NCBI GenBank assembly: GCA_020137815.1
Contig: CM035359.1
Location: forward strand, 7,378,001 to 7,442,000
From: Hormiphora californensis
Taxonomy: Eukaryota > Animalia > Ctenophora
Length of the DNA stretch: 64,000 bases
Direction: 5' to 3'
Shown: positions 1 to 53,614 of the stretch, piece after piece
Numbering within the stretch: position 1 is the stretch's first letter
How the letters are laid out: every line of letters begins with the position of its first letter
Notes under the pieces: model-generated
What the model was told of the DNA's origin: nothing
The model's database searches: none
The model's input: the letters and a program-made list of their open reading frames with translations, nothing else
Position numbers and translations under genes: made by a program

Positions 1-3000
1 GGAGCAGATCTACATCTGAGAGGATAAAGGGGTATAAGAGGGCAATGAATGATGTGATGGTTATGAAGGATAAGTTCCCCTTCCTATCCTTCAACTAAAG
101 ATCATGGAGAAATCAGGGCAACGTGTAAGAAATGTGATAAGAACTTTTCTCTCCCCCAGAGTGCCAACAAGGATGTAGGAGGAGAGTGGTCTGTGGCTAG
201 AAAGAAGCTCCTTAAACATGCCCTGAAGGAACGGAAAGGAAACAACTCACAGCCGGTAGAACCTGCTGAAACAAGATCTGATCCTGAGCCGAAAATGAAT
301 CGGTTAACAAAGCTGAGAAAGAGCCTAAAGTTGACAACAACCTGCCAAACATGTCACCTTCAGTTTAGTAACGGTCTCCTCCTATCACGTCACTACGGTG
401 TTGTCGCAGTGTCAGAGGACTTTGAGGTGGACGGGCACTCTTTTGTAAACGAGTCGAGTGGGGCATTCTACTGCAGCTACTGTACAGGTGTGAGTTTTAG
501 TAGCGGTCAGGCGGTCATGCAGCACCAGATGTTTACCTGTCCCAGAATGTCAGAGCTGAGAGCGATGTCACCCATGGACACGGAGATAACTTCTAAAAAG
601 AGAACTGTGAAGGAAATCATTGTGTTGAAACAGAAGTTCCCATTCCTGTTCTTTGTAAAGGAGCAGAGTCAGATTAGTGTGAAGTGTACAACTTGTAGGG
701 AGGGTTTCTCCCTCCCACTACATGCCAATAACAACAGGGGCAGTGATTGGAAGGTGGCGGTACGGGCCCTTTTCACTCATGCTCTCAGACATCAACCAGA
801 TGTCACTCCTACCAATGACAACACAGTATCCTCCTCAAGCAGTACTACATCCAGTGTAGCCGCTACCAGTAGCATCTCGAAGGGAAAAGTGAAGGCTCCA
901 AGACTAACAACTCTGCCCAGGGGACGTCCCAAGAAACACAAAATGGCCATGTTATCAAAGCCTATCAAGGGGAAATCTTGTCGTACTTGTGACATGACGT
1001 TTAGCAACAAACAGATCCTCTCAAGGCACTACGGCGTCATCGCCATGTCTGAAGATTTCGAGATCGAAGGCCACACATTCATCAATACCAAAGGTTTCTT
1101 CTGCAGCTTCTGTAGTAAGACAGGCACAGGTGCGTTTTCATCCGCCAAAGAGGTAATGGGTCACCAGATGTTTAGCTGCTCTGAGTTAACCTCTCTGAGG
1201 ACCAGTGATAGTTCGGAATTTGTTGGCCGGAAAGAAGCAACGAAGATCATCTCTGAACTGAAGAATAAGTACCCGTTCTTTGCGTTCCATAAGAGTAGAG
1301 GACAGATAAGGGTGGATTGTGGGTCGTGCGATAGAGTAGTGAACATGTTACCCCAGAGTACTAATGCGAGTGAAGAATGGACCAAAGCGATTAACGAACT
1401 GAAAGAACATGCCCGGGAATCCCACAATGACCACACTCAAGTTGACGAAGTCGCCCCATTAGATCCTGAACAACCTTCTTTAGATGATGTTAACTCACCC
1501 GCCACTGCAGTTGTCAACTCACCCGCCACCACCGCAGTTATCAACACCAAAAAGGGAGGTAAAACCCAGAAAAAGCAGTTGCCAATTGGCAGTTCATTGG
1601 GTTTCAATAAGGGTGGACGATGGGGACGTTATAGCTGTAAGATATGTGACTACAAATGTAACGGAGGGGCAAGCATGGGCCGTCATTTTGGAACTATAGC
1701 TGCATCAGAAGACTTCCAACTTGAAGGACATGCCTATGTCAAGGGAGATAGACCAGGTTATACCTGTCGATACTGTGATGGGCTGGTATTCCAGACTGCT
1801 GAGGAAGTGATGCGACACCAATCCTTCGTTTGTGCACAACTAACTGAGATGAGAACAGCCGATCCCGATGATTTCTTTGGGAGGAAAGAGGCTATAAAGG
1901 AAGCAGCTGAAATGAAGAACAATTACCCCTTCCTGACCTTCCAAAAAGAATCGAAAGGTATTCTAGTTGAGTGCACACTGTGTGGTGAGAAGATGGACCT
2001 GCCCCTAAGCACAAAGGAGAAACAGAAATGGGAGTACGTGACGAAATTCGTAGTAGTGGCACACGCTGTACACCACCGTGATTCAAGTGGCAAGAAAGCA
2101 TTGGATAACCAACCTGATTCTCCAACAGTTGGGGATACACCTGCTGAGGTACAGGGATACAAGCGGCGCAGAGTAGCGGACATATTCGCTGAGAACTCCC
2201 TGAACCGAGGAGCCTTTGCAAGAAGTGATTCCTCTACTGTTGATCTTCCAGAGTGTTCCGTCTGTAAGGTAGTGTTCAGTGATAAAGTAACTCTGAATAT
2301 GCACTATGGTATCACACAGATATCAGTAGACTTCGATACAAAAACACACAACTGTATCAGCAGGTCAAAAGCAGATGAGCAGTTTAACTTCCCATCCTAT
2401 CCTTGTAGCTACTGCAAGAAGGACCAGGTGAGTAGCAAGGATCTCCTCCTACATCAGATGGAGAACTGCCCTCAGTTCCCATTTGGAAGGGAGAACGAGG
2501 AGAATGGAAGTGATAATGTCATCCTTGTTGTGGGTTGTGTCACAAACACCTCATCAAATAACACATTACCCAAGAATAAAGAGAACTCTGTTGATGATGA
2601 GGTTGAGATACTACAAGATCCAGAGGAAGTTACCTCTCCCGCTGATCAATCAGGAGTTTTCGAAGAGATGGATAGTACACCACAAGAGGGTGATGGTGTC
2701 AGTAAAAAGGCTTTGGAGATTGTAAACTCCCTCGATCTAGATGAGCCAAACCATCAGACTACAGTGATGGAGCAAGGGTATTCAAGAGGTGATAGCGGTA
2801 GTAAAATAGCGGCTGTTAACCCTATGCCTGTAGTTGCCACTTCCAGCTCTGGGGGGAATTATCAGCCATCTACCAACCTAAGAACTGTCACACAAAGTTC
2901 AGTAGCTGTAATTCACCCTCCTTCTTCACAGACAACACCCGGAGTTGAATTAGGATCCTCTTCCCTTCCCATACAATCTTCTGAAAGCGTTGCCTCCCGT

Positions 3001-3108
3001 CTCCCCACACAAGCAGCGCCTGTAACCCCCTACCTCCCCATACAACCAGCACCCTCTTCTGCACGTCCTGAGTCCCCTGATTCTCTTCCACCGCCACCCC
3101 TAGAGTAA
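1..3108 (+). CDS. Zinc-finger cluster gene A (5'-incomplete): 4 SxDF paired zinc-finger modules, 4 extra long-spacer C2H2/BED-like modules, Pro/Ser-rich tail
   Basis: ORF 193-3108 has CxxC..H..SEDF..H..CSYC..HQxxxC modules (e.g. CQTC..RHYGVVAVSEDFEVDGH..CSYC..HQMFTC). Homologous sequence (MKDKFPFLSF / TKDHGEIRATCKKC) continues to base 1 across a 1-nt frameshift at ~92, so coding starts upstream of the window. TAA at 3106-3108 overlaps a possible GTAAGG donor. Confidence 0.75.
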
Positions 3109-3292
3109 GGGTTGACACGTCACTTGAATATAAACACTATAACGACTGGGAAACCAGGTTTTTTTTATCCCAATACAGATATGGACTGGATAAATTTTTA
3201 TCTTTTATTTAGAGTTTTAAAAATAATATATTCTGCATGAAAATAGTGTGAACACTTTTAAAAATGGTTATTTATTAAAAACGTATATGGTA

Positions 3293-4687
3293 CTGGGTGT
3301 TCATTTTGGATCTTTACAAGCGTTGGCCTTCACTTAGAAAAAAGTTGACAAGATCAGGTCATGAAACTTCATACTTGGACCATTCTATACTCTCATTCAA
3401 GGTTCCTGGGGGTTTTGGAGCTCTAGCACCCCGGGAAGTGTGTTTTTGGCATCAAAACTACCAGAAGGAATTTTTTTGCTGGTGCTGAGACTTTGCTAAA
3501 ATGTTTTTTGGGTATTTTCTATGTCAATCCTAAAGTTTCATAGAGATTGGATGTGTTTTTCGGACTCAAAATTTCGATAAATGTGGCTGGAAGGGCTCGA
3601 AAACAGCTCAAAAACGGCTAAAATTGAGTTATTCCAGCCACTTTTTACGAAATTTTGAGTCTGAAAAACACATCCAATCTCTATGAAACTTTAGGATTGA
3701 CATAGAAAATACCCAAAAAACATTTTAGTTAGGGTAAGCTGGGGTAAAAGTGGCCCATTTTTAACGTTTTGGGTTCTAAAATACGCAATATATACAGCAG
3801 GAAGAAAAAAATTATATAGGCTATCCAATGAGACGTTTTCTTTTCAGCCGAGCTAATTTTTAAAATCTGCAAGTTTTATTTAATGGGTTAATTAATCAAT
3901 TCAAATAATTTGGTGAGGCGTTTTTTGGAAAATTTGCATCGGGGCAAAGTGGCCCAAGCCAATAGCATTGCTCGATTTTATCACGTGCCTGGTGTTGTTA
4001 GACGAAACGATCAAATTAGGGGCAAAGTGGCCCATGTTCTGCACCGGAACATGGGCCACTTTGCCCCTAATTTGACCGTCTGGACTACATGGCGCCTGCA
4101 TTCCAATATCACGTGGTATTGCAGGCGCCATTTCATTGGTCCTAGAGGTGGGCCACTTTGCCCCAGACCGGACCACTTTGCCCCGGAGAGTGGGCCATAT
4201 TCGCCCCGATTTCACAAAATTGACAATTTAATCAACTTAATATTGAGTTTTTTGAAAAAAATTTATATCAAGATTTAGAAGGATAAAAAACCTAACTGGC
4301 AGTTTTTGCAAAATTAAAATCGGCCAACTCAAACAGAAATTACAGCAGTTTTAAAGCAAAAATCCGGAACAGAACGAGCAGGTCTCCGCTGGAGAAAAAG
4401 TCACGTGACCACATGTAATAACTAGGGCCACTTTGCCCCAAACATGGGCCACTTTCCCCGGTGGGCCAAACTACCCCAGCTTACCCTAAGTCTCAGCACC
4501 AGCAAAAAATTCCTTCTGGTAGTTTGGATGCCAAAAACACACTTCCCAGGGTCCTAAAGCTCCAAAACCCCCAGGAACCTTGAATGAGGGTATAGAATAG
4601 TCCAAGTATGAAGTTTCATGACCTATTCTTGTCAACTTTTTTCTGGGTGAAGCCCAACGCTTGTAAAGATCCAAAATGAACACCCTG
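3293..4687. mobile_element. Foldback MITE, Tc1/mariner-like (TA TSD), interrupted by a nested element
   Basis: Ends ta|ctgggtgttcattttggatc and gatccaaaatgaacaccctg|ta. The left arm 3293-~3590 is the reverse complement of ~3630-3728 plus 4489-4687. Confidence 0.85.
3732..4486. mobile_element. Nested non-autonomous DNA transposon (TA TSD, 15-bp TIR)
   Basis: TIRs gggtaagctggggta / taccccagcttaccc flanked by TA. Removing it restores the length of the host arm. Many internal ggggcaaagtggccc motifs on both strands, and an internal hairpin at ~4012-4073. Confidence 0.85.
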
Positions 4688-5146
4688 TACATTGCATGGG
4701 TTAGCTTTATTCACTCTACATTTAAGATGTGTAGCAGGTCGTTTCATAATTTAATCTCGCGATGAATGTTTTTCTTCTTTCAGCAGAATAAGATATAAAA
4801 ACATGTGTAGTTCGTTTATGTTACCATCTTTTTACCAGAAGGAAAACTTAGTTCGTCTCTTATCTTCAATTTAACTTTCTATATCACATGTATCACTGAA
4901 AAAAATGAAGCGACCTACTATGATCAATCATCATACTAATGACGATCTACTATTCTATTTTCCCATAACAGATTACCATTGTTTTATTACGAATGTCTCT
5001 TATCCACCTTCCTAACCCCTCTTCTCAACCTTTCTGCTTTCTAATTCTATCGCATAATGATGACCCCATCTTCCTATCCCCCATACCCCCGTCTGTTTTC
5101 TATCGTATAATAATAATAACCCCATCTTCTATTTCTCTCTCTAGCT

Positions 5147-8100
5147 ATGAACGACCCTGACTTATTACCAGCGGTTCAAGAAGCCAGTAACGAAGGGGAC
5201 AGCTGCACACCACCTAGTAACCAGCCATCAGAAGAACCATCTACCACCGTTAGTAAAGAACAGCCAGAACCATCTACCACCGTTAGTAAGGAACAGCCAG
5301 AACCATCTACCACCGTTAGTAAGGAACAGGGATCTGAAGAACCATCTACCACTAACAGTAAGGAACAGCCATCTGAAGAACCATCTACCACTAACAGTAA
5401 GGAACAGCCATCTTCCACCACAGAACCTGCGGGGACTCTCTCAGCTGAGGTGATGGAGAATGGAGAGTCAGTTGGTAAAGTGAAGACGGTGTCCAGCACA
5501 TGTAGGTATATAGACGATTACGAAGAAGTGGAGCCAGTTGATAAAGAAGTGGAGCCAGTTGATAAAGAAGTGGAGCCAGTTGATAAAGAAGTGGAGCCAG
5601 TTGATAAAGAAGTGGAGCCAGTTGGTAAAGAAGTGGAGCCAGTTGATAAAGAAGTGGAGCCAGTTGATAAAGAAGTGGAGCCAGTTGGTAAAGAAGTGGA
5701 GCCAGTTGATAAAGAAGTGGAGCCAGTTGATAAAGAAGTGGAGCCAGTTGATAAAGAAGTGGAGCCAGTTGATAAAGTGAAGGTAGTCTACAAGATCTTT
5801 AATCCAGTTTTAAAAATGTATGTAGATGATATAGAAATGGAACCATCTGCTAAAAAAATTAAAGCCCGTATCGATTCTGATAAAGTTGAGAAGGCGGTTT
5901 TAGCTTATGATATCGATCAGGATCACGTACAGGACAGCGATAAGGATATCAATTACTAACTCTGAACCCCGGACACGATCACAGAAAAGGGTATGTTACT
6001 CCTGTCCCATCCCACTCCTCCCCTTTTATTTCTCCTCACTCAAAGCATTGGCCTGACAGGTACAGCCTGCATGTTTTGAACTCAAGGTTTTTTTTAGATG
6101 ATCCAATGTAATGTTTTCAGACACTGGACGCTATGATAAAAACTGGTGAACAAATTGCACGTGTGTTGGAAGCACCCCTATATGCGGTAGGTTATGTTTT
6201 AACTTTAGCGAATTTCTAGTAATAGGACAGTGCAAGTTAAACTAATTTATTATGACCCTTTGGCCTTAACGATATCATCTTGCGACTTCATTTTTAGATT
6301 ATTTGTTCTCCTACCCGACCCCACATAAAATTTGTTCTTCGTCTGTGGACGTCCACGTTATGTTTAGGTATCTTCTCTTTTTTACCCGTTCTTCGGGACT
6401 GAGTTGCATTTAGCTAAATACGCTGACCCTGTAACACATTTAATGCGAACACCCCTCCATCCCCCCCCCCCCCCAATACTCAAATACCCCCTCTCCTACA
6501 GGGACCACCAGATGAAACTACCACGTGCGTTGTGTGTGACGCAGTCTTCAAAGATGATTTCCACCTCTCACGACACTACAAAGTTGCCTACAGCTCCATA
6601 GATTTCCGATTCCACGACCACTCCTATACCGGTGAGGTATCCTATTGTTCTTACTGCCTGATAAGTTTTGCAGCTCCAAAGCAGTGGTCCCCTCACAACA
6701 TCATGCTGCACCAGATGATGAACTGTGATGTGTTCGAGAGGATCCGACTGGGTCTCCCAACGAAGAAACCACCAACAAAGAAGAGGAAATTAGACGCACC
6801 ACAACCTGTCATTTGGGAACCTGCCGCACCAGAATCTGCCATTTGTGAACCTACCGCACCACAACCTGTCATTTGGGAATCTGAGGTAGAAACGGATCCT
6901 GAAGAAGATCCTATCCCAGGCGCCAGACCCAAACCCATACCCGAAAGATGTGTTCCATCGAGATTCGCCAAGTTATCAATCCGATTTGGTCGTTTTTCAA
7001 CTTCCAAGGGAAGTATGTTTGTAGTTAACTCTGGTAAACCTCTATCCAAAGACAACAACGTGATTTTCTTCAGTTTCTCCACTACTGACAATGGTCACTA
7101 CGAGTACGATATTCACGAGTGTGATGTTTGTAAAGAGAAGTTCGGGTGTTTGGAAACCCACGCTGCTCACGACATCCTGATGATGCAGGTACGGGACTGG
7201 GACAGACACACCCACAAGTATGTACCGATAAGGGAGTCTTACAAGGGTATGTACCGGTGCAGTTTCTGTGGTAAGAGGTGCGAACTATCTGGGGAGCTGC
7301 AGCAGCATCAAGTCATGGGTAGCTGTACTGCCATGGAGGAGTTCAAACACCACTATGGCACGTTAAACGCGTGCTTAAAAATAGAACGGGAAGGAATAGT
7401 AGAAAGGACAGAGGGACATGCTATAGACAGCAAATTGTCTGAAAGTGATAATATCTACTGCACAAAATGTTACCAGACGTTCCCTAACTCCTCACCAGAG
7501 ACACTGTACCGACACAGGGAACTGATGGAGGATTCAGCAGACTTCAACAAGGACCATCACTACATTGGTCTCCCGGGGACCTTTGAGTGCAGTTATTGTG
7601 AGAGCCAGTGGCCGACATTACAGTTGTTTGAGAAACACCAAATATATGATTGTGATAACTTTGCCCTGAACACTCCAATCAAATCAGCTGATACCCAGAT
7701 CAAGTGTTGTGTGTGTAAGGAGGTGTTCCAGACGATGAAGGACCTGGATCAGCACTCTAACCTAGTGGCAGCTTCTGTTGACTTTAACGAACAACACTAC
7801 CCAATATCTGACAAGTGCTCTTATTGTGACGAGAGATTCCAGACTTTTAAGGAGCTGTACAGTCACCAGAGGGATGATGATTGTAGAGCCTTCTCGATCG
7901 AGGGAATAGCACTCCCACCTGGTCTGCTACCCCCCACACTGCCCCTAGCCCTGTTTGAAGACGAGGTAAAACTAGCAGAGGCCATCCAAACAACACTGAA
8001 CCTAGTATGTCAGGTGTGCAGCAGGTTCTACCCTGATGCAGCCTCCTTAAATCATCATTTCGCGTTAGTGAGGGCTTCAAAAGACTTTGATCTAACTACC

Positions 8101-10019
8101 CATGCGATAAAACCTAGAGCGAACCCCTATCCCAACAAGAACTTCACGTGTTTCAAGTGTAACAGATCGGATATGTATAGCTATGTCCAGTTTGAAGCCC
8201 ACCAGATAAGGTGCCTGCGTCTGAGTGAGAAGTATGGGACGGAGTGTGTGAGGTGTCAGGATGACATGGGTACCATGGAGGATCTGGCGAAGCACATCTA
8301 CTGGGGTGAGAGGACTATAAACTTTGACAACAAACACAACTTAAGGAATAAGGATCAGGATCCTTTCTGCTGTTTCTACTGCGGTATGATAGTACCCCCG
8401 TGGCAACTAAAGACCACCAGCTAAAGCGATGCTGGAGGTTCAGAAACTCAGGTGTAGTACGGGGGAGGCTCAGGGGTAAAGGGGACGTTAAAATGATTTC
8501 CACGGCTGAAGAGGACGTTGAAACTGTTTCCACGGCCGAAGGGGACGTTAAAACAGTTTCCACGGCTGAAGGGGACGTTAAAACTGTTTCCACGGCTAAA
8601 GGGGACGTTAAAAAGGTTCCCGAGACTAAAGGGGACGTTAAAACTGTTTCCACGGCTAAAGAGGACGTTAAAACAGTTTCCACGGCTAAAGGGGACGTTA
8701 AAACTGTTTCCACGGCTAAAGGGGACGTTAAAAAGGTTCCCGAGATCAAAAGACGACGTAAAACTTACGAGTGTAACGTCTGTGGAGAGGCCATGCCGGG
8801 TCCTGTGACCCTAATTCGACACCACTCCGTCATGGCCCAGTCAGTTGACTTTGACCACCATCACCATCTCCAGGAGAGTGTATATAAGGAACTGAAAAGA
8901 GATAATCAGAGGTTTCGGTTAAGGTGCTCCTACTGTTTGAAACAGTTCAAGAGGCAAGCTTATTTCTACGAACACCAAAAGGAGGAGTGTAAGTTGTCCG
9001 GGTTCCAAAATATAACCCACAAACTTGAGGTAGCGAAGAAATTGAGCAAAGTTCAACCCCTCTTCACCACAAACACCACAAACGGCAGACCGATGTGCAG
9101 GAAGTGCGATGTAGAGATAAAATCTGCACAATTTGCTAGATTACATGTTGATCTGATGAGAAACTCCCTTGATTTCGATGAAAAAACCCACGAGTATATC
9201 GGTGATGATGAGATGAAGGTGTGTGGATATTGTGATAAGATTTGTACCTCCCGGACTAAGCTAGAAAAACACCAGTACATGAAGTGTAAAATGTTTGAAG
9301 GAGTAACCAGGAACGCCAAGGCCGCCAATCTTAAAAGATGTGAGAAGTGCGATGTAGATTTCGTGAGTAAGATTGAATTGAAATTGCATCGGAAGCTGAT
9401 GAAAAGCAGTTGGGATTTCAATAGCGACACACACGAACTCTATGAAGACAGCAGAGACGGAGATATGTCGAAGTGTTCTTATTGCGGGGAGGTTGTGAAA
9501 ACTGGTCAAGATCTGGCCGATCACCAGCTGAAACGGTGTGAGAAGTTCTCAATATTTGAAGATAAATATAACCAACTGCAGGAAGAGCAGGGTGAGGGTG
9601 AGGAGGGTGAGGGTGAGGGTGAGGAGGATCAGAAGGAGGGTGAGGGTGAGGAGGGTGAGGGTGAGGGTGAGGAGGAACAGAAGGAGGGTGAGGAAGGCAG
9701 TGAAGAGGAGGTAGAGGAAGAAGAAAATAAAGGTGAAGAAGTTGAAGAAATGGTATTGGAAAATAAAGGAAAGGAAGTAGAGGAAGATGGAAAGGAAGGT
9801 GAGCAAGTTGAAGACCATGCGGAGCGGTGGAGGGAAGAAAAGAAAGGAGAACACGCGGAGGAAATGGGGACTGGAAAGAAAGGGGAGCAAGAGGAGGAAA
9901 TGGGGACTGGAAAGAAAGGGGAGCAAGAGGAGGAAGGTGGAAAGAAAGGTGATCAAGATGAAATGTGGGACCAATTATTAAGGGGTGCCGCAGCATCAGC
10001 AGTTGAAGTTTTGAAATGA
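5147..10019 (+). CDS. Zinc-finger cluster gene B, multi-exon: repetitive N-terminus, 9 SxDF paired zinc-finger modules, Glu/Gly-rich C-terminus
   Basis: Proposed exons 5145-5990, 6121-6186, 6502-10019 with canonical AG/GT; phases fit if one extra A at ~5951 is removed. A one-base frameshift at ~8410 joins CCFYC..WQLK to DHQLKRC, completing a module exactly across the two listed ORFs. Confidence 0.7.
5525..5776 (+). repeat. Coding 21-bp minisatellite (EVEPVDK x12)
   Basis: gaagtggagccagttgataaa in tandem. Confidence 0.95.
8481..8750 (+). repeat. Coding 30-bp minisatellite (GDVKTVSTAK, about 9 copies)
   Basis: ggggacgttaaaactgtttccacggctaaa in tandem. Confidence 0.9.
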
Positions 10020-10349
10020 CGCAAAGTTTTCTTGATACTGTTAATCGTATGATATTGATAGTGGACGTATCTGTCTTTTTATAACATTTATATTGTTGTT
10101 TCAGTAAATTATTTCCCTTCGAAAGAGTTTGTTCTAAAATCTCCCACCTCCCCCCGTAGCAAACCCTCCCCAACCAACCCTCCCTTGGTGAGCTATAGAG
10201 TTAAACCCTTCGCATTATCCGTCAAGCGACATAATAGGTAGCGAGCTACCATTCCCTGTCCAAGTCTCCCCAACCCATCTGATTATCCTCAGCTTCGATC
10301 GTCCTCGTCTCACTCCCAATTTTAACCCCTATTCTCCCTCCTTTTTAGT

Positions 10350-13047
10350 ATGGTACAACAGAATCATTGGGCACAATATGAAATTGAATCCAAATGCGAC
10401 CTCTGTCCCTCAATCCACTTCTCAACAGCGGAGGAACTACAAAAACATATCAGCACGGTAAAATCTTCAGAGGATTTCGATCCTTTTACCCACAAATCTA
10501 AAAGAAGAAAGTGTAGTTATTGCCATGTCATCACCACCACCTCCAAAGATCTCCTTGAACACCAGACTTCATCGTGCCATGTGTTCTATGTTCCCTCTCC
10601 TCTCGGTTCTAACTCCTTGGAGAGTCTCCACCATCAGATGACGTCTGCTATGGAGGGGGCAAATGACGCTGATTCATTCCTCAACAACATGGAGAAGAGG
10701 AACACTATGGAGGAGATACCTGGTGATGAGGAATCCAACAGGGTGGTGAAATGTCCTGCCGTCAGGTGCAAACGGAGAAGGTTCAAACTGCCCGAGTTAC
10801 GTCAGCACATGTCTATTATGACGTCATCGAGGGACTTCAAGAACACCCTCCACACTACAGTGGTGGGTGGTAATTACTGTTCATACTGTGAGACCTCATT
10901 CTCCTCCACGTCTCTACTGGAGAGTCACCAAACCTTCTGGTGTATGGGGTTCACCCCACCCGATATTACCTGCCAGTCCGTCCTTCTTGATATGGAGTGT
11001 GTTGAATTCACTGACAAGGTGGTGGGTGCAATGTTGCAGAGTCTAGATGATGATGATGATCACATGCCTGATCCTAACTGTGGTGAGGAGAGGGGTGAGG
11101 TGTTCAACTTGATACCTGTGACTCCAACCCCTGTTGTCGTTGTCGGACCCCTGTCATTGTTGTCAGGAGGCTGACACAATGAAACGTCATATTGAGACCG
11201 AATTACTGAAATGTCAAGTTGACCAAGCCGACAGACATCAAATTGAAGCAGATAAATGGAGACGCCAAATTGAAGCAGATGAAACGGTGAAGGATCCTAA
11301 GTTTGGAGTCCGAAAAGGATTCTGGAATGGGGCTCCTGAGACCCAAAGGGAAAAATCAAAAAGGAAAGCTTCGATAAATAATGATGGTGAGGTGTTCAGC
11401 AACGCGCTTCTGGTACCTGCTGGTAACTCTGCTGCTGAACTGTTGGAAAAGGAGCAGAAACGTGCTAAACTGGGCATTAATTACAGTTGTGAGAAGTGTG
11501 GTAGTAAGTTTACCAGTGAACTAGAACACTACAAACATGTGTGTAACCATGGTAACCACGACCCAAAACCGGATACTTCCAACTCACTCGATCAACGCGG
11601 ACGCAAATGCTTTGTATGCCGTCGTACTTTTAGTACCAGGATGGAACTTCTTCAACATTTGAGCATTATGGAGATATCGCCAGATTTCAGGACTGACACA
11701 CACATGCCCTGCATTAAGTGGCCCTGGTTTTGCTTCTGGTGCAAATTTTATTTTGGGAACAGACTTCGTTTTGAAGCACATCAGCTGGAAAAATGTCCTG
11801 GAAGAAAAATAGAAAAGATTGAGAAACTGGTATCCCAACTGGCGGCAATGAAACAGCTGCCTATGAAGAAGAAAAGAGTTAAGATTCCACCACTTGTGAG
11901 GCCGAGAAGGCTAAACCGCCAAGCCATGAAACAATTACAAACACGTAGAAAAGGTATTAAGATGGCGGAGGCCGATAAAACCCTGAAGGATCGTAAATTT
12001 GGAGTCCGAAAAGGATTCTGGAATGGGGCTCCCGAGCGAATGTTAACTACTGTGGTGAGTCAAAAGTTAAAAAGGAAACTAAAGAAAACCCTTTCAAATC
12101 GCTTGATCGTGCCAACAGAGGATGTGGCTAAAAGACACGAAGCTGCAGTTGACTACACTAAGGACCCTAAGGATGTCTCTCAAAAGATGCAAACTATTCT
12201 CGATGAGGAGCGAGATAAAGCGGCTCAGGGTTGGAGCCACAAATGTGGAACTGGACGGTGTTCGTCCAGGTTTGATACTGAATTGGACCTCTATAGACAC
12301 CAAGTAGTGACGGCTAAGAGTGTGGACTTTGATAAAGATCACAATCTGATCGCAAAGAATTATAATTTAATTTGCTGTAGCTACTGTCGCAAAACTTTCC
12401 TCACCTCTAGAGATCTAGTGACACACCAGTTCTGGAATTGTGTCGTGGTGAAAGTCATTGGGGAATCTTTCCTAAAGGGAGGGTTTAATACCAGTAAATT
12501 GAGAATAACTACATTGAAAGTGAAGAAGGCAGGACGGGTAAAGTTGGGCGGTCCTAAGATAAAACCGGCAGATGGCACTACTGCTGCAAAGCTGACAACA
12601 TCTACTGCTGCAAAACCGACAACATCTACTGCTGAAAAGCCGACAACATCTGAAGCTGCTGCGGGTGAGAGTGTTGCTGCAGAGAACCAGCCTGAACTCT
12701 CTCCTTGTGGAACTATTGACCCGGATCAGACACATTCTGCTACACCTCCACCTACTGTAACGGGAACTGTTCCGATGGAATCCTCTACTGATGGATACAC
12801 TGTTACATATCCTGCAACCTACTCGTGCACCGTGTGCCCCTTCGACTTCCTCTCTCCTAAAGAGTTGGTTGAGCATACCGGACTTATGGAACAGTCACGT
12901 GACTTTGACGAGAACCACGATTATATCAGCACAGAGGGAGGTGATTTCAAGTGTTCATATTGTGATAAGAGTTTTACAGAGATAGAGTCTCTTATGGAGC
13001 ACCAGTTGGATGTTTGTATCGAGTTTAGAGAGAGTTTAGAGGGCTGA
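10350..13047 (+). CDS. Zinc-finger cluster gene C: 5 SxDF paired zinc-finger modules plus one classical C2H2
   Basis: ORFs 10350-11174 and 11134-13047 can be joined in phase 0 by a 67-nt intron 11100-11166 (weak GTGTTC donor, tgtcag acceptor) or by a frameshift. Modules include CTVC..EHTGLMEQSRDFDENH..CSYC..HQLDVC. AG acceptor at 10347-10348, just before the ATG. Confidence 0.7.
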
Positions 13048-13225
13048 GAGGGTTAAACGAGGGTTTAGAGAGAGTTTAGGCAGCTGAGAGGGTTTAGGGA
13101 GCTGAGAGGGTTTAGAGAGCTGAGAGGGTTTAGAGAGCTGATAGGGTTTAGGGAGCTGAGAGGGTTTGGGGAGAGTTTAGAGAGAGTTTAGAGAGCTGAG
13201 AGGGTTAAACGAGGGTTTAGAGAGA
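13020..13225 (+). repeat. Minisatellite (gagagggtttagagagct-like) spanning the gene C stop codon
   Basis: Tandem variants of gagagtttag/gctgagagggttt. Confidence 0.8.
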
Positions 13226-13375
13226 TATAAGGGATGATTATTGGTACACAAGATCGAGAGAGAAATGTTATACATTTTTTATTGTTCATTATTTTATTTC
13301 TACCGAGCTTTACTAAACATTATCAACGTGTTTCATTCCTCTGCTGTTACAATTTAGTTTCTTCTGTCCACACTT

Positions 13376-13449
13376 TCTCTCTCTGTCTCTCTGTCTCTCT
13401 CTGTCCCTCTCTGTCTCTCTCTCTGTCTCTGTCTCTCTCTCTCTCTCTC

Positions 13450-13541
<92 letters not shown>

Positions 13542-13580
13542 TCCCACTCTCTCTCCTCTCTCTCCTCTCTTTCTCCTGTC
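13376..13580. repeat. (CT)n microsatellite
   Basis: Direct reading. Confidence 0.95.
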
Positions 13581-13622
13581 TACAAAACCCTCCTAACCAC
13601 CCATCTCCCTACAACAAGGCAA

Positions 13623-15709
13623 ATGCTGAATGTTTCCGAGGGGTTACTGATAAAGTTTCAGGAGCAGAAGGAACGCTACAAAATAGAACAAGATGAGGTC
13701 TTCCTCAACTTTCTACTTGATAAATTGGATTACCCACCTGGTATGTGACATCCCAATTAATCACCATCAAATAATTAGCATTAATTAGTTAGGAAATTAC
13801 CATAAAGCGGTAAACCTGGCAATTCTCCAGTTGTATCACTCTGACAATGTCTATCTTTCTCCTTGTTCAGGTGAAACATGCAACTATAAAGAATACAACA
13901 CGTGTACCTCCCCTTTGTTGAGTAAGGGATCCCTAATTGTCACATCTCCTGGACCTAACAAGCTTGTTATTAACAGGAAACGGCGACATAAACAGAAAAG
14001 GTAATGGACTCCTACTACCCCCCCTTTTATAGAGGAGTGAGGACCCTTCTAACTTAAAACCAGCTTCAATTAATATCCCCCATCATGTTCCCTAAAACTA
14101 ATCCCTTTCTTTCTGTTCCAGTGTTTCAATAAAAAGACGGCATCAGCCCGACCCAGGACGAGATCTTCTGGACATCGTCCCACCGAGTCTTACGAAGTTG
14201 AAAAAGAACCGCCGGAGAGCTGGATCTAGATTCTCCTTCACTTTCAATAATCCCGTTGTAAGGAATGATCTCCAGTTACAATTACCAAAAACGACAAAGA
14301 CATCAGAAATGGTAGAACGTTTTGAAACTGCTCCAAAATCAGCGATATTATCTGTATCTGGGACGGCTACTAACTCAGAAACACTGCCTGGGACGGCTAC
14401 TAACTCAGAAACACTGCCTGGGACGGCTACTATCTCAGAAACACTACCTGGGACGGCTACTAACTCAGAAACACTGCCTGGGACGGCTACTAACTCAGAA
14501 ACACTGCCTGGGACGGCTACTACCTCAGAAACACTGCCTGGGACGGCTACTAACTCAGAAACACTGTTGGGGACGGCTACTAACTCGGAAACACTGTCTG
14601 GGACGGCTACTAACTCAGAAACACTGCCTGGGACGGCTACTACCTCAGAAACACTGCCTGGGACGGCTACTACCTCAGAAACATTGCCTGGGACGGCTAC
14701 TACCTCAGAAACACTGCCTGGGACGGCTACTACCTCAGAAACACTGCCTGGGACGGCTACTACCTCAGAAACACTGTCTGGGACGGCTACTACCTCAGAA
14801 ACACTGCCTGGGACGGCTACTACCTCAGAAACACTGCCTGGGACGGGTACTGACTCAGAAACACTCCCTGGGACGGGTACTGACTCAGAAACACTCCCTG
14901 GGACGGCTACTGAAACACTACCTGGGACGGCTACTAACTCAGAAACACTGTCTGGGACGGCTACTACCTCAGAAACACTGTCTGGGACGGCTACTACCTC
15001 AGAAACACTGCCTGGGACGGCTACTAACTCAGAAACACTGCCTGGGACGGCTACTAACTCAGAAACACTGTCTGGGATGGCTACTGAAACACTATCTGGG
15101 ACGGCTACTACCTTAGAAACACTGCCTGTGACGGCTACTGAAACACTGTCTGGGACGGCTACTGAAACACTGTCTGGGACGGCTACTACCTCAGAAACAC
15201 TGCCTGGGACGGCTACTGAAACACTGTCTGGGACGGCTACTGAAACACTGTCTGGGACGGCTACTGAAACACTTCCTACTGATCTTGGTACTGACTGGGT
15301 CCGTGTACCGATCCTCAGTGAACGTTGGAAAGGGACAGTCTGGGGCTGGAAATGTTCAGTGTGCCCTATGGAATTCCGGGATTACTTTGCTAAACAGCGC
15401 CACGAAGTTGTCATGGCCAAGAGCAGGGACTTCCTATCCAACCACCACCCTGTGAGACCTGACTCTCCCCCTGTGTGCTGTTATTGTGGACATTTCACCG
15501 TGGATTGGGTTGCTATGGCAATACACCAGGCAGTTCACTGTGAGCTGTTCCCTGGTTCTGGCCTGGACTCAACGAGGAGGGGGTTCATGAGAACAGAAAG
15601 GGCTATGGGGTGTATGTGGGTAAAGTTGTTAATGGGTTTAATAGTGTTCCTGTTAAGAGTGAACCAATGGATTGTTAGTCAAATTGAATATTTGTATCAA
15701 TGGTACTAA
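13623..15709 (+). CDS. Zinc-finger cluster gene D, three exons: helical N-terminal motif, long Thr-rich repeat, single SxDF module
   Basis: Exons 13623-13740 (MLNVSEGLLIKFQEQKERYKIEQDEVFLNFLLDKL), 13871-14000 and 14122-15709 splice in frame with canonical GT-AG. Module CSVC..RHEVVMAKSRDFLSNHH..CCYC..HQAVHC. The 3' end is uncertain (possible donors near 15612-15620). Confidence 0.75.
14359..15275 (+). repeat. Coding 30/24-bp minisatellite (GTATNSETLP, about 30 copies)
   Basis: gggacggctactaactcagaaacactgcct in tandem. Confidence 0.95.
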
Positions 15710-16912
15710 AGTCCGTTTCAAGCGACTTGACCCGTAATTCTTGGAATTCGGCGCATTGCGCGTGTATTTACAAAGGGGAAATCCTGAATTTCCAGGAATC
15801 TCAGGTCAAGTCGTTTGAAACGCACTTTATTACATTTTTTAACCTCTCTATTTTCTACATCCAATGGTTTATATGTACAGTTATTTTCATATTAAGTTGT
15901 AACTTGTAAAATTATATTGTTCTAAATCTGTAAGTCTGCATTTTTAGTGTCTATTAAGGGAAATGTGACACAAATCGCCCAAGACCCCGGTGTTATTTTT
16001 AATGTCATGTAACGCGCGTAACTTATTCAAGTCTGACTGCGCGGCATAACTCTAAACGAACTTGTGCCGCGCGCTGTACTGAATAAAAAAGTATCCAAAA
16101 CAATTTTTTTGACAAGCTTCGAAGTTTTTTGTTTTGTGATTTTTACGAACTTCGGTCAGTCCTGAGTCACGTCTTTACAGTGACTTGTAACGACGCTGGG
16201 CCTTCGGTCCAGCAAGTCCCTGCATATCCGGGGCCAGGGGTGGTACTTGGTAGCTCCGTGAAACAACCCACAAGCGGTCCAAGTGCTCAGAGCTCAGCCC
16301 TGGCGGGGTGTAGAGCAAGCATGGTCTAAAAACGGTCTTATCGGCCAGGACTTATCGCTGTTCTAAGTTCCCTTACGTGTACGCCAAAACAAATCGTTGC
16401 CCCTAACCTTGTTTTTGAAAGCCTTTTGTTTTCGCATGCGTGGCCCTTTCTTTGAATTTTTCTCTTTTCCCCTGTCTTCATGATCCGAAGTAAAAGTGTG
16501 TCCGCATCGTCGGCATGGTAGAGCCGCCCCTGGGGTGAGGGGAAACACGGTCGAGCGAGGCAACCCGTAATCCTAACCAACTGCTCCTTGCCTAAGTGAA
16601 AGCAACTGTGATATTTTGACCCCACAAAAAGCTCCCACTTCCTAATGTTTGTTCCTATGTTTGACCCCATACCACTGCACAAAAAGCTCCCCCTAATGTA
16701 ACTGTTTTAGCAGCAGCTGTATAATGATTACTATCTGATGAGCACTATGACAATGCTGGCACCGTGCAAAAGGAATCAAGGTGCCCTTACTGCGATAATA
16801 AAACAAGAAAACCACTCCCCACCCACCATGGGCTCTAAATGTAAGTGGTTTTGTGGTTTTTAAGAACAATTCACAACTTCTGAACCACTTTGCTTTGACC
16901 AACTAGCTATTA

Positions 16913-23319: not shown

Positions 23320-24173
23320 TCACGTGTTCAAATGACGTTTCATGTGCAATGAAGGTGATCTGATCTACTAAAACAGCGATCACAATGATTACATTTAAAC
23401 GGTTTCTGTCCCGTGTGTTTGCGAGTGTGTCGCGTCAGTTCATCGCTTCGTGCAAACCTCCACACGCACCCTTCCCAGGTGCACCGATATGGTTTCTCTC
23501 CAGTGTGTGTCCTCTGGTGCGCCTTGAGGTGGCTACTCTTCGTATACACTTTAGTACACCCCATATGATCACACTTGTGTACCCTCCGTCTAGAGTTGTC
23601 TGTTGGACTGCGCCGCATTGTGTAACTAGGGGCGTTGTCAGGGAGGTGGGTGAGGGGGTGCGAGTTGACCATACTGAGACTGCTGGTGAGATGGGTTGGT
23701 AGTTGGGAGGGCGGGATGTTAGCTGACCTCATCAACACAGACAAGATATCAGAGGGTTTCAGATTCCCAGAGGAGGAGGGTGTGATGTCAGAATGGCTGG
23801 AGGAGGGGGACCCATAGGCAGGGGGTGGTAGGGCCGCTGCTTCTGGTGGTGATCCATCACCAGGTAGTGATATAACAGGCCTGACATGGTTCACAGGGGG
23901 TGGTGGTGGGATTGTGTAGTCGCTATATCCTGAGTTGCTGCCCTCCCCCATGGTGTAGGGTTCCTGTTTCACGTGTATAGGAGGGGACATGTAGGAGGGT
24001 GGGGCTGGAGGAGGGGGAGGTGTAGGGGCCATGACTCGAGGTGGGGCCGGACCAAACTCGAACCTCTCCTTCTTGATCGTCGGTAGGATGTTGATGGGTG
24101 GAGGGGGTGCTATTAGGGGTGGTGGAGCTGGTCCCGCCACACTGCCATCTCCGTTAAAGAAGTCATCTACCAC
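23320..24173 (-). CDS. KLF5: Kruppel-like factor (KLF5-like), terminal coding exon with three C2H2 fingers
   Basis: [80 protein letters not shown] is the diagnostic KLF finger array. Adding one T at ~23353 restores [10 protein letters not shown]. Pro-rich region with IKKE/VKQE SUMO-type and PPAY motifs. CAG acceptor at 24174-24176; upstream exons not found. The KLF subfamily is tentative. Confidence 0.9.
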
Positions 24174-25781
24174 CTGGGGAGGCAGAGGAGGGGGTTAGGA
24201 TGGGAGAGGGAGAGGATGGTTAGAAGGGGAAAGAAATGGAGGGAGAGGGGCCAGAAAAAAACTGAAAAGGAAAGGAACGGAATCGGAGGGGGTTAGAAGG
24301 AGAAAGGAGACGGCTAGAAGCTTTTTTAAAGAGGTAGAGGAGTAGTTACCCGCTAAAATATAAAGGGGAATGTTTCTGATAGTTAGACAGTATAACACAG
24401 GAGACTATAATAAGGGAAGAGGAATCAAGCAGTGATAGTGGTTTCGCAACATTCTGAGAAAGAAAGTTTCCAAGAACTCAAGAAGCTTTGTTTTTTGTTT
24501 GTTTTTCAACTTTTATTGTTCCCCATGTTACAAAAAGACGTCTTGTGTGTGTGTGTGTGACGTGTGTACATATATTTTTTGTGTCTGTCCATTGTATGAT
24601 TTACAGCTCAATTAACTCTTTAAACTTCCGCCACTTGCCGCCTACCTGTCTCCTATCTCTCTACCTCTTTCTATCTAGCTATCTTTCTCTCTCCCTCTCT
24701 TTCTATCTGTATCTCTCTCCCTCTCGTTCTCCCTTACTGTCTCCCTTTCTCTCTCTATCACTCTCTCCCGTCTTTCTTTTCACTAACACACTGTGTGTCT
24801 CTCTCTTCTCTCTCTATCTCTGTTCCTTCTCTCTCTATCTCTGTTCCTTCTCTCTCTATCTCTGTTCCTTCTCTCTCTATCTCTGTTCCTTCTCTCTCTA
24901 TCTCTGTTCCTTCTCTCTCTATCTCTGTTCCTTCTCTCTTTACTCTTTCCTTCTCCTTTTCTGTTCCTTCCTTTACTTGTTCCTTCTCCTCTATCTCTGT
25001 TCCTTCTCTCTCTATCTGTTCCTTCTCCCCTATCTCTGGCTTCTCTCCTCTCTTTTGTGACCAAAACTGGGCTTGTTTAGAGCTTGCGGAAGACTGTATC
25101 GCAGGATGTCGAAAGGGGGGGAGAGAGGCGGGGAAAGGGGGGGAGAGAGAGAGGGAGAAGAAGGAGAGAGAAGGGGGAGAGAGAGAGGAGAGGGGAGAAA
25201 AAGAGGGATAAAAGAGAGAAAAAAAAGAAAAAAATTTCTTCCCCGACAAAAAAACTCCAGTGAAAAACTGGGGGGAAAAAAAGCAGAACTTTATTGGTGC
25301 GTGGTATCGATGCGGAATGAAAGAGAGACAAAGGACGATAACCCACCACCACGACCCCCCCGCCTTCTCTTGTCCTCTCTGTGCTCTCTCTTTCTCTCCA
25401 AAAACAGATAACGTAATGCACAGGACATGTTAAACTAAAGCATAATTTCACTGACTCGTGACGCGGAGAAGAGTGTTAAAATTGAAGGAAATATCTGAGC
25501 GTCAAAAATATATTTTACAAGAGTTAAATTAAATGCTTGTCAAGTTATTCAAAAATTCAGAAAAATTTATTGATCCATTTATGATATAGATTATTGTGAA
25601 AATTACTGAAGTTTTGAATTCAACATGTAAATTTCCCTTTGGAATTTTGTCTGAAGTTACTTTTGGCTGGTCTGTAGGTTGGTACTGGGGTAGGAAGATA
25701 TTGTTCCATCTCGTCACGGGTTGAGGGAAAAAAATTTGTTACATCAGGAATCAAGTTAATTTTTTTGATTATGTTAAATCA

Positions 25782-25881
25782 NNNNNNNNNNNNNNNNNNN
25801 NNNNNNNNNNNNNNNNNNNNNNNNNNNNNNNNNNNNNNNNNNNNNNNNNNNNNNNNNNNNNNNNNNNNNNNNNNNNNNNNN
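25782..25881. other. Assembly gap (100 N) flanked by low-quality homopolymer-rich sequence (~22.2-27.1 kb)
   Basis: N run, with long poly-A/G/C/T runs typical of unpolished long-read consensus. Confidence 0.95.

Positions 25882-34982: not shown

Positions 34983-53614
<18,632 letters not shown>

What the first reader, a model, noticed from the sequence alone, without database searches (positions are those of the whole stretch)
343..15541. Gene cluster built on an unassigned paired 'SxDF' zinc-finger module (19 copies in about 4 genes)
Seen: 19 divergent copies (4+9+5+1) of C-x2-C-x~12-H-x6-S-x-D-F-x3-4-H-x(6-20)-C-[SGF]-[YF]-C-x~12-H-Q-x3-C. The first finger has 13-14 residues between its two His, with a strongly conserved SxDF. 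The second is a C2HC finger with conserved HQ and mostly CSYC. There are no TGEKP linkers. Known: classical C2H2 fingers have H-x3-5-H. Inference: the two halves always co-occur and the motif is kept while spacers have diverged completely, suggesting one obligate two-zinc fold under purifying selection. It may be a lineage-specific expanded family of nucleic-acid- or protein-binding regulators, analogous to KRAB-ZNF/ZAD-ZNF clusters. I do not recognise it as a named domain.
Basis: partly seen in the sequence, partly recalled or inferred. Interest (0 to 1): 0.85.

Follow-up and report, generated by a model that had tools for sequence, protein, structure and literature searches.

The report
Comb-jelly double zinc-finger gene cluster
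Four neighbouring genes of a comb jelly, each with a Pleurobrachia bachei counterpart, carry 19 copies of an unnamed 65-residue double zinc-finger unit that is predicted to fold as one compact block and likely serves as a protein-docking module in nuclear gene regulators; it is a real, conserved, undescribed domain variant whose function is untested.

Summary
In detail: 18 intact modules plus one split by a frameshift lie at 343-15541 (+), grouped 4+9+5+1 in four genes; residue shuffles give none. All four genes have Pleurobrachia bachei counterparts that read through the window's five 1-base frameshifts, and modules are better conserved (86%) than flanks (75%). No Pfam family covers the whole module above its cut-off; only single-finger models pass. 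AlphaFold2 models it confidently (pLDDT 93, pTM 0.76), in keeping with one packed two-zinc unit, but coordinates and a packing control were unavailable. Modules are neutral to acidic (mean -0.8 against +4.9 for TGEKP-linked pairs), so classical DNA reading is unlikely. Best reading (0.45): protein-docking units of nuclear, chromatin-associated scaffolds. Main rival (0.3): non-classical DNA binding. New here: gene A adds a third, different zinc finger and an AT-hook-like core, and genes A and D share a short N-terminal module. True relatives came only from P. bachei and one unnamed fragment; range across ctenophores is unresolved. The scan's earlier notes hold nothing like it.

The parts
1..3108 (+). 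Gene A, 3' part (5' part lies before the window); 4 modules here, 5 in the P. bachei counterpart; 1-base frameshift near 93-96
   Evidence: 81.5% identity to P0002 residues 573-1648, P0002 542-572 in another frame at 3-95; ORF 67-3108
343..540 (+). module A2
   Evidence: identical to P0002 module 2
979..1179 (+). module A3
1636..1833 (+). module A4
2254..2469 (+). module A5
67..237 (+). third-type zinc finger of gene A, copy 1 (frameshift near its start; last His missing)
   Evidence: alignment A4
589..801 (+). third-type zinc finger of gene A, copy 2 (helix, three strands, Cys-x2-Cys, Trp, helix with His-x3/4-His)
907..942 (+). AT-hook-like Arg-Gly-Arg-Pro core, kept in P0002
   Evidence: Pfam AT_hook 9.4 bits in P0002, under the 17.4 cut-off
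1222..1425 (+). third-type zinc finger of gene A, copy 3
   Evidence: AlphaFold2 model of module plus this finger, pLDDT 93, pTM 0.84
1879..2085 (+). third-type zinc finger of gene A, copy 4
5147..10019 (+). Gene B: exon 5147-5990, GT-AG intron 5991-6501, exon 6502-10019; 9 modules; 1-base frameshifts near 5950 and 8410
   Evidence: P0001 aligned at 43%, 67% and 67% over three segments; splice sites
6526..6726 (+). module B1
7120..7326 (+). module B2 (Val-x-Asp-Trp variant)
7459..7653 (+). module B3
7705..7884 (+). module B4
8008..8214 (+). module B5
8245..8432 (+). module B6, degenerate (Thr-x-Asn in place of Ser-x-Asp), split by the frameshift near 8410; whole in P0001
8772..8990 (+). module B7
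9096..9287 (+). module B8
9339..9539 (+). module B9
10350..13047 (+). Gene C, 5 modules; 1-base frameshift at 11166
   Evidence: 76% and 66% identity to P0151; a contig of run X1 lacks one base at 11166
10395..10577 (+). module C1
10752..10943 (+). module C2
11281..11352 (+). first copy of a conserved ~20-residue repeat of gene C (second copy from 11977); two copies also in P0151 and P0003
11488..11550 (+). lone ordinary C2H2-type finger of gene C, without the Ser-x-Asp-Phe extension
11608..11796 (+). module C3
12244..12441 (+). module C4
12826..13017 (+). module C5 (the one modelled)
13623..15709 (+). Gene D: exons 13623-13740, 13871-14000, 14122 onward, spliced in frame at GT-AG sites; long tandem Thr/Ser repeat; one module; frameshift near 15640-15670
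   Evidence: P0152
13623..13740 (+). Gene D exon 1: 39-residue peptide resembling the extreme N-terminus of P0002 (gene A counterpart)
   Evidence: best of 155 proteins held, 1 of 5000 shuffles as high; 33% identity
15353..15541 (+). module D1
   Evidence: 95% identical to P0152 module

Best explanation
A cluster of four conserved comb-jelly genes encodes large, mostly low-complexity proteins that each carry one to nine copies of a 65-residue module, predicted to fold as one packed two-zinc unit and likely used as a protein-docking surface in nuclear, chromatin-associated regulators. Shown: the genes, the copy numbers, eight candidate zinc ligands per module, conservation against P. bachei, neutral-to-acidic charge, long spacers. 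Predicted: finger 1 is a beta-beta-alpha finger whose helix runs six residues past its first His, turns at Ser-x-Asp-Phe and returns a far His as fourth ligand; finger 2 is a Cys-x2-Cys-x12-His-x4-Cys finger. Inferred: Ser, Asp, Phe (half 1) and Tyr, Gln (half 2) form the interface that locks the halves together, as the Trp pair does in Zic/Gli/Zap1; the outward helix faces, which differ between copies but are kept between species, each bind a partner; basic clusters import the proteins into the nucleus; gene A is tethered to chromatin by its AT-hook-like core and third finger; the N-terminal module of genes A and D may dimerise them.
For: Signature residues outside the zinc ligands are split between both halves and are 97% kept between species (105 of 108). 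No half occurs alone in the window. AlphaFold2: pLDDT 93, pTM 0.76, helix 14-26 running past His20, 4 of 5 models near or above 90; same secondary structure in a second copy. DNA-wrapped CTCF finger pairs superpose only at 7.6-7.9 A rmsd over 51 residues. Net charge averages -0.8, 12 of 18 at or below zero, against +4.9 and 5 of 754 for TGEKP-type-linked pairs taken from the generic hits (p 1e-10); Asp/Glu fill 26 of 108 of the -1/3/6 helix positions against 232 of 2262 in that control. Finger 2 has the spacing of FOG-type CCHC fingers (Pfam CCHC_ZFPM2 in 3 of 18 copies, best E 0.0011; U-shaped finger 1fv5 Z 2.1, rmsd 2.8 over 35 residues), which bind proteins (PMC7614390, passages). Packed finger pairs with long linkers are proposed to act outside direct DNA binding (PMC2837044, Discussion). 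Basic NLS-like clusters are kept in genes A, B, C of both species (the NLS label is recalled).
Against: No partner is identified and nothing was tested for binding. Arg/Lys at the -1/3/6 positions (15 of 108, 14%) is not far below the control (474 of 2262, 21%), so those positions do not exclude DNA contacts; 6 of 18 modules are net positive, up to +5. The position-by-position comparison did not single out a binding face (84-89% kept on both helices and the extension). The FOG residues recalled as needed for GATA binding are absent, and the FOG, NLS and AT-hook signals are all weak or short. The identity of His34 as fourth ligand and the packing rest on confidence scores, not on inspected coordinates; Asp could be a ligand instead.
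Confidence: 0.45

Rival explanations
1. The modules bind DNA in a non-classical way: each rigid pair reads a short site and the long spacers let one protein span distant or repeated sites, as an architectural or repeat-silencing factor.
For: AT-hook-like core and a third finger in gene A, which I recall as resembling the TTF/BED fingers of hAT transposases; ctenophores lack CTCF and use lineage-specific C2H2 proteins at loop anchors (PMC12221973, passages); ZNF512/ZNF512B bind pericentric repeats and recruit SUV39H (PMC13537249, one passage); 6 of 18 modules are net positive and Arg/Lys occur at recognition positions.
Against: Most modules are neutral or acidic, down to -11; the published tethering proteins CTEP1/2 are ordinary tandem arrays without this module in the rows seen; the TTF resemblance got no Pfam support.
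Confidence: 0.3
2. The modules bind structured RNA or RNA-processing complexes, like matrin/JAZ/Serrate-type fingers with an N-terminal extension.
For: Top structural rows are Serrate (Z 3.6, rmsd 3.3, 54 aligned), ARS2 (Z 2.8) and U2/spliceosome fingers (Z 2.2-2.7); zf-C2H2_jaz in 9 of 18 and zf-met in 5 of 18 copies; widely spaced fingers.
Against: These Z values are at the level of common arrangements by the tool's own note; the Pfam matches cover only the generic Cys-Cys-His part; RNA-binding fingers of this kind are recalled as basic, these are not.
Confidence: 0.12
3. The halves are two ordinary independent fingers and the conserved Ser-x-Asp-Phe only stabilises an extended finger 1; the proteins are unremarkable scattered-finger proteins.
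For: Each half scores on generic zf-C2H2 models (18 of 18 on zf-C2H2_4); linker length varies from 6 to 19 residues; packing was not tested against a control.
Against: Strict co-occurrence in 19 of 19 copies, invariant Gln and conserved Ser-Tyr in half 2, pTM 0.76.
Confidence: 0.08
4. The cluster is decaying (pseudogenes), as five frameshifts suggest.
For: Five 1-base frameshifts in about 12 kb of coding sequence; no run on record as RNA could confirm transcription.
Against: P. bachei proteins read through all five; a contig of run X1 lacks the extra base at 11166 (one contig, depth 2.6) and another ends one base shorter than the window near 5950 (read by eye); long ORFs without internal stops; ligands 143 of 144 kept between species. 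Assembly errors are the simpler reading.
Confidence: 0.05

Closest known systems
Tandem CWCH2 motif (Zic/Gli/Glis, Zap1, PacC; PMC2837044)
   Same: Two adjacent beta-beta-alpha fingers with a long, variable linker and conserved non-ligand residues that (here: predicted) pack them into one unit; an aromatic residue between the Cys pair of finger 2 in 18 of 18 copies (Tyr, Phe or Trp); Zap1 ZF1-2 appears at Z 2.5, rmsd 3.5, 48 aligned.
   Different: No Trp pair (0 of 18 in finger 1, 1 of 18 in finger 2); finger 1 has His-x13/14-His, finger 2 ends in Cys; the unit is repeated up to nine times and is not followed by canonical DNA-binding fingers.
FOG/U-shaped CCHC finger (Pfam PF25445 CCHC_ZFPM2; PDB 1fv5)
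   Same: Finger 2 has Cys-x2-Cys-x12-His-x4-Cys spacing; weak Pfam and structural matches.
   Different: The two residues before the last Cys vary freely; the Tyr-Tyr recalled for FOG fingers is in 0 of 18; always fused to the extended finger 1.
Classical C2H2 arrays (KRAB-ZNF, ZAD-ZNF, CTCF, ctenophore CTEP1/2)
   Same: Clustered, duplicated multi-finger genes; each half derives from the beta-beta-alpha finger; a short N-terminal module shared by two genes.
   Different: No TGEKP-type linkers, no tandem array, neutral-to-acidic charge, no KRAB or ZAD match in Pfam.
ZNF451 C-terminal double finger (PF23107), DUF5810 (PF19126), CASZ1 finger (PF26743)
   Same: Weak profile or language-model look-alikes: PF23107 spans residues 2-62 at 20 bits in the first copy and matches 3 of 18; DUF5810 3 of 18; Atlas lists DUF5810 and CASZ1 clusters at 0.95-0.96.
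   Different: All below curated cut-offs; Atlas rows are mixed generic finger clusters sharing 110-153 of 256 features; no alignment showing Ser-x-Asp-Phe was seen.
Serrate/ARS2 and SF3A2-type fingers
   Same: Helix or hairpin followed by a finger superposes loosely on residues 12-71 or 26-71.
   Different: Z 2.2-3.6 only; those proteins have one zinc site there (recalled), not two.

Membership tests
Classical tandem C2H2 DNA-binding array | His-x3-5-His spacing | tested here: not met
   His-x13/14-His in finger 1, His-x3-5-Cys in finger 2, 18 of 18
Classical tandem C2H2 DNA-binding array | TGEKP-type linkers between adjacent fingers | tested here: not met
   none in the six cluster ORFs
Classical tandem C2H2 DNA-binding array | beta-beta-alpha core with Cys-x2-Cys-x12-His | tested here: met
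   zf-C2H2_4 matches 18 of 18 copies at E up to 1; spacing 12 in 15 of 18 first fingers; model
Classical tandem C2H2 DNA-binding array | sequence-specific DNA binding | not testable with these tools
   charge argues against
KRAB-ZNF / ZAD-ZNF | N-terminal KRAB or ZAD domain | tested here: not met
   no such Pfam match in window ORFs, gene D exon 1 or full P. bachei proteins; ZAD needs four Cys (recalled), the shared N-terminal peptide of gene D has none
tCWCH2 | Trp between the Cys pair in both fingers | tested here: not met
   0 of 18 and 1 of 18; definition from abstract of PMC2837044
tCWCH2 | two fingers share one core | tested here: inconclusive
   pTM 0.76, Zap1 row Z 2.5; coordinates not seen
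FOG-type CCHC finger | Cys-x2-Cys-x12-His-x4-Cys | tested here: met
   His-x4-Cys in 15 of 18, x12 in 13 of 18
FOG-type CCHC finger | Pfam PF25445 above cut-off; GATA-contact residues (recalled Tyr-Tyr before last Cys) | tested here: not met
   15.5 bits against 27 in the gene C ORF; 0 of 18 Tyr-Tyr
Matrin/JAZ/Serrate-type RNA-associated finger | same fold over the domain | tested here: inconclusive
   Z 2.2-3.6
ZNF451 double finger PF23107 | score above cut-off 30 | tested here: not met
   12.6-20.1 bits in the tables shown
TTF/BED finger (third finger of gene A) | family profile match or shared fold | tested here: inconclusive
   resemblance recalled only; Pfam scan of 4 copies gave none of these families; fold rows were generic alpha/beta at Z up to 5.9
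Ctenophore tethering proteins CTEP1/2 | orthology to the published sequences | tested here: not met
   supplement rows show ordinary tandem fingers; the string CSYC is absent from the searchable files; long cells were cut and two PDFs could not be read

The most novel reading that the evidence does not exclude
The module is a new obligate two-zinc fold, invented in ctenophores independently of tCWCH2, and the four genes form a lineage-specific chromatin-architecture or repeat-silencing system: dimerising N-terminal module (strand-helix-helix, ribbon-helix-helix-like as I recall that pattern), a domesticated transposase-type third finger and AT-hook in gene A, and up to nine rigid recognition units per protein, filling the role that ZAD-ZNF or ZNF512 proteins fill elsewhere in a lineage without CTCF.
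Probability: 0.2. Interest if true: 0.75.

Novelty: new variant of a known kind. Interest (0 to 1): 0.5.

Why it matters
It adds a sharply defined, so far unnamed zinc-finger architecture (His-x13/14-His finger locked to a CCHC finger) in one of the earliest-branching animal groups. Ctenophores have thousands of chromatin loops without CTCF and rely on lineage-specific finger proteins (PMC12221973, passages); a conserved cluster with 20 rigid, divergent modules is a concrete candidate for that missing regulatory layer and is easy to test by DAP-seq, pull-down and structure. Its reach is limited: known so far from Pleurobrachia-like animals only, with no function shown.

Tried and rejected
Fold searches found nothing clear: for the module, best Z 3.6 among 48,161 chains and no Foldseek match at E 0.001 in PDB or BFVD; for module plus third finger, best Z 5.9 to unrelated alpha/beta domains. 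These blanks do not show that the fold is new. The complex-prediction tool, meant to test the two halves against controls, was not available, so packing is untested. No whole genome is held, so genome-wide copy number is unknown. No RNA holder listed; run X1 (RNA is only a guess) gave low-depth contigs on coding parts and no splice joint, so transcription is not shown; the 29 substitutions scored in X1 contigs (of 30 listed; one in the acidic repeat left out) were 13 synonymous and 16 not, too few and too mixed (alleles or paralogues) for a selection test. Range: the HMMER search of 1.84 billion representatives lists only the best 150, of which 4 are true relatives; the other 149 of 155 proteins held score at most 28.9 bits per stretch against 52-78 for true copies. 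The single-module P0152 was not among the 150, so diverged or low-copy relatives in other ctenophores could be hidden, and I had no control that other ctenophores are in the library. Word-based searches added only P0151 and P0152, nothing for the third finger beyond P0002 and P0046, nothing at module length. Metagenome and viral scans gave no relative; a degenerate DNA pattern (finds 6 of 18 window copies) hit 59 + 3 loci, all chance (best 15.6 bits). Giant-virus Atlas look-alikes rejected as generic fingers. The module tree resolves orthologue pairs but not duplication order (17 of 36 forks open). The shared N-terminal peptide matched nothing useful in Pfam, PHROGs or PDB. No co-repressor motif (CtBP, EH1, WRPW, NuRD patterns recalled) was found; a SUMO-interacting-like stretch in gene A and P0002 is too short to weigh. 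Ten literature searches (open-access library only) listed no paper that by title or abstract describes the module; the P. bachei ids gave only spurious numeric matches in the supplements of PMC10027918, which use other ids.

Full report
Observation. The motif is in the sequence as described. A relaxed pattern finds 18 intact modules on the + strand from 343 to 15541, and a profile built from them adds a 19th at 8245-8432 that a 1-base frameshift splits; no further full copy lies in the six frames of the window. Chance is excluded: 18 against 0 in 1000 residue shuffles, 14 against 0.42 expected at DNA level. His-to-His spacing in finger 1 is 13 or 14 in 18 of 18, the linker 6-19 residues. There is no TGEKP-type linker. 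Copies are 31% identical on average (21-58%). The ligand residues were selected by the pattern, so their invariance is partly built in; the Ser and the Ser-Tyr of the second Cys pair were not.

What the genes are. A profile search of 1.84 billion representatives and a word-based search returned five Pleurobrachia bachei proteins and one unnamed fragment as the only true relatives; the other 149 of 155 proteins held are generic finger arrays scoring at most 28.9 bits per stretch against 52-78. The P. bachei proteins map one-to-one on four genes: A (to 3108, P0002), B (5147-10019, P0001, one GT-AG intron), C (10350-13047, P0151, with a second similar protein P0003) and D (13623 to about 15700, P0152). 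The window is therefore from a close relative of P. bachei. They read through all five 1-base frameshifts of the window; a contig of run X1 independently lacks the extra base at 11166 (one low-depth contig). I read the frameshifts as assembly errors. Between the two species modules are 86% identical (1019 of 1182) and flanks 75% (1661 of 2214; p 8e-15); ligands 143 of 144, signature residues 105 of 108. That is protein-level evidence of constraint; dN/dS could not be computed. Each module pairs with its own orthologue, so the duplications predate the species split; their order is unresolved.

Gene A repeats a 150-residue unit, module plus a third, different finger, at 41-43% identity; module plus third finger is modelled at pLDDT 93, pTM 0.84. 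I recall its Phe-Pro-Phe-Leu ... Cys-x2-Cys ... Trp ... His-x3/4-His pattern as TTF/BED-like, but Pfam gave no such match. Gene A also has an AT-hook-like core kept in P. bachei (below Pfam's cut-off). Gene D splices in frame from an upstream exon whose 39-residue peptide resembles the very N-terminus of P0002 (best of 155 proteins, 1 of 5000 shuffles; noticed after the fact); its strand-helix-helix look is a recalled resemblance only. Basic NLS-like clusters are kept in genes A, B and C.

Is it a named domain? Each half scores on generic zf-C2H2 models, some above cut-off, but only over about 20 residues; the one family that spans the module, the ZNF451 double finger, stays at 12.6-20.1 bits against 30. 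PDB sequence hits are ordinary finger arrays matched piecewise. Atlas look-alikes are mixed generic finger clusters. The published ctenophore tethering proteins CTEP1/2 are ordinary arrays in the supplement rows seen. Ten searches of the open-access library listed no description.

Structure. AlphaFold2 on the 18-copy alignment gives pLDDT 93 and pTM 0.76, with two hairpins, a first helix (14-26) running six residues past His20, a small turn carrying Asp29-Phe30 and His34, and a second helix 56-66. Tandem CTCF pairs superpose at 7.6-7.9 A over 51 residues; the best rows are Serrate (Z 3.6, rmsd 3.3, 54 aligned), ARS2, spliceosomal fingers, Zap1 ZF1-2 (Z 2.5) and the U-shaped CCHC finger (Z 2.1), all weak. 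I could not view coordinates and the controlled test of the two halves was not available, so one packed two-zinc unit is a prediction supported by strict co-occurrence and by conserved non-ligand residues on both halves.

Mechanism. Modules are neutral to acidic (mean -0.8; 12 of 18 at or below zero) while 754 TGEKP-type-linked finger pairs from the generic hits average +4.9 (5 at or below zero); acidic residues are enriched at helix positions -1, 3, 6. Against my reading, Arg/Lys at those positions (14%) is not far below the control (21%), six modules are net positive, and no single face stands out in conservation. With finger 2 spaced like protein-binding FOG CCHC fingers (PMC7614390, passages) and the precedent that packed tCWCH2 pairs may act outside direct DNA binding (PMC2837044, abstract and first part of the Discussion), I put protein docking in nuclear scaffolds at 0.45, non-classical DNA binding at 0.3 (context from PMC12221973, 12 of 14 passages and supplement 5 rows, two PDFs unreadable; ZNF512 from one passage of PMC13537249), RNA binding 0.12, independent ordinary fingers 0.08, decay 0.05. 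PMC10027918 (12 of 28 passages, supplement search) shows that Pleurobrachia domesticates transposon-derived finger genes but does not mention these.

Verdict. A real, conserved, apparently undescribed paired zinc-finger module in a four-gene ctenophore cluster. It works most likely like a packed finger pair of the tCWCH2 kind but is not a member of that family, nor of FOG, KRAB-ZNF or ZAD-ZNF. Range beyond Pleurobrachia-like animals, transcription and function are open. Novelty: new variant of a known kind.

Noticed in passing
window 3290-4690: Nested non-coding DNA-transposon-like elements between genes A and B: 187-base inverted arms (3290-3476 / 4504-4690, 94%), an internal 97-base hairpin, and an inner element with subterminal 20-base repeats.
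   Followed up: partly
window 23340-24194 (-): KLF/SP-type three-finger gene fragment with ordinary TGEKP linkers, proline-rich upstream part.
   Followed up: no
window 62380-63999 (-): LINE-type reverse transcriptase ORF, open at the window end (family read from the sequence, not scanned).
   Followed up: no
window 10350-13047: Gene C may be duplicated: P. bachei has two similar proteins (P0151, P0003), and run X1 has two different contigs over 11680-11795, one identical to the window and one with 6 differences.
   Followed up: partly
window 11281 and 11977: A ~20-residue motif rich in Gly, Phe, Trp and basic residues is repeated twice in gene C and kept twice in both P. bachei proteins; possibly a linear binding motif.
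   Followed up: partly
P0046 (unnamed 1051-base contig): Fragment 64% identical to gene A, more distant than P. bachei (81.5%): a third species or a paralogue.
   Followed up: partly
window 46948-51028 (+): Two long proline-rich tandem-repeat ORFs (584 and 354 residues), probably exons of one gene.
   Followed up: no
window 15703-15833: 44-base inverted repeat directly behind gene D.
   Followed up: no
window 25782-25881: 100-base assembly gap with low-quality sequence around it; with the five 1-base frameshifts this points to a noisy assembly.
   Followed up: no
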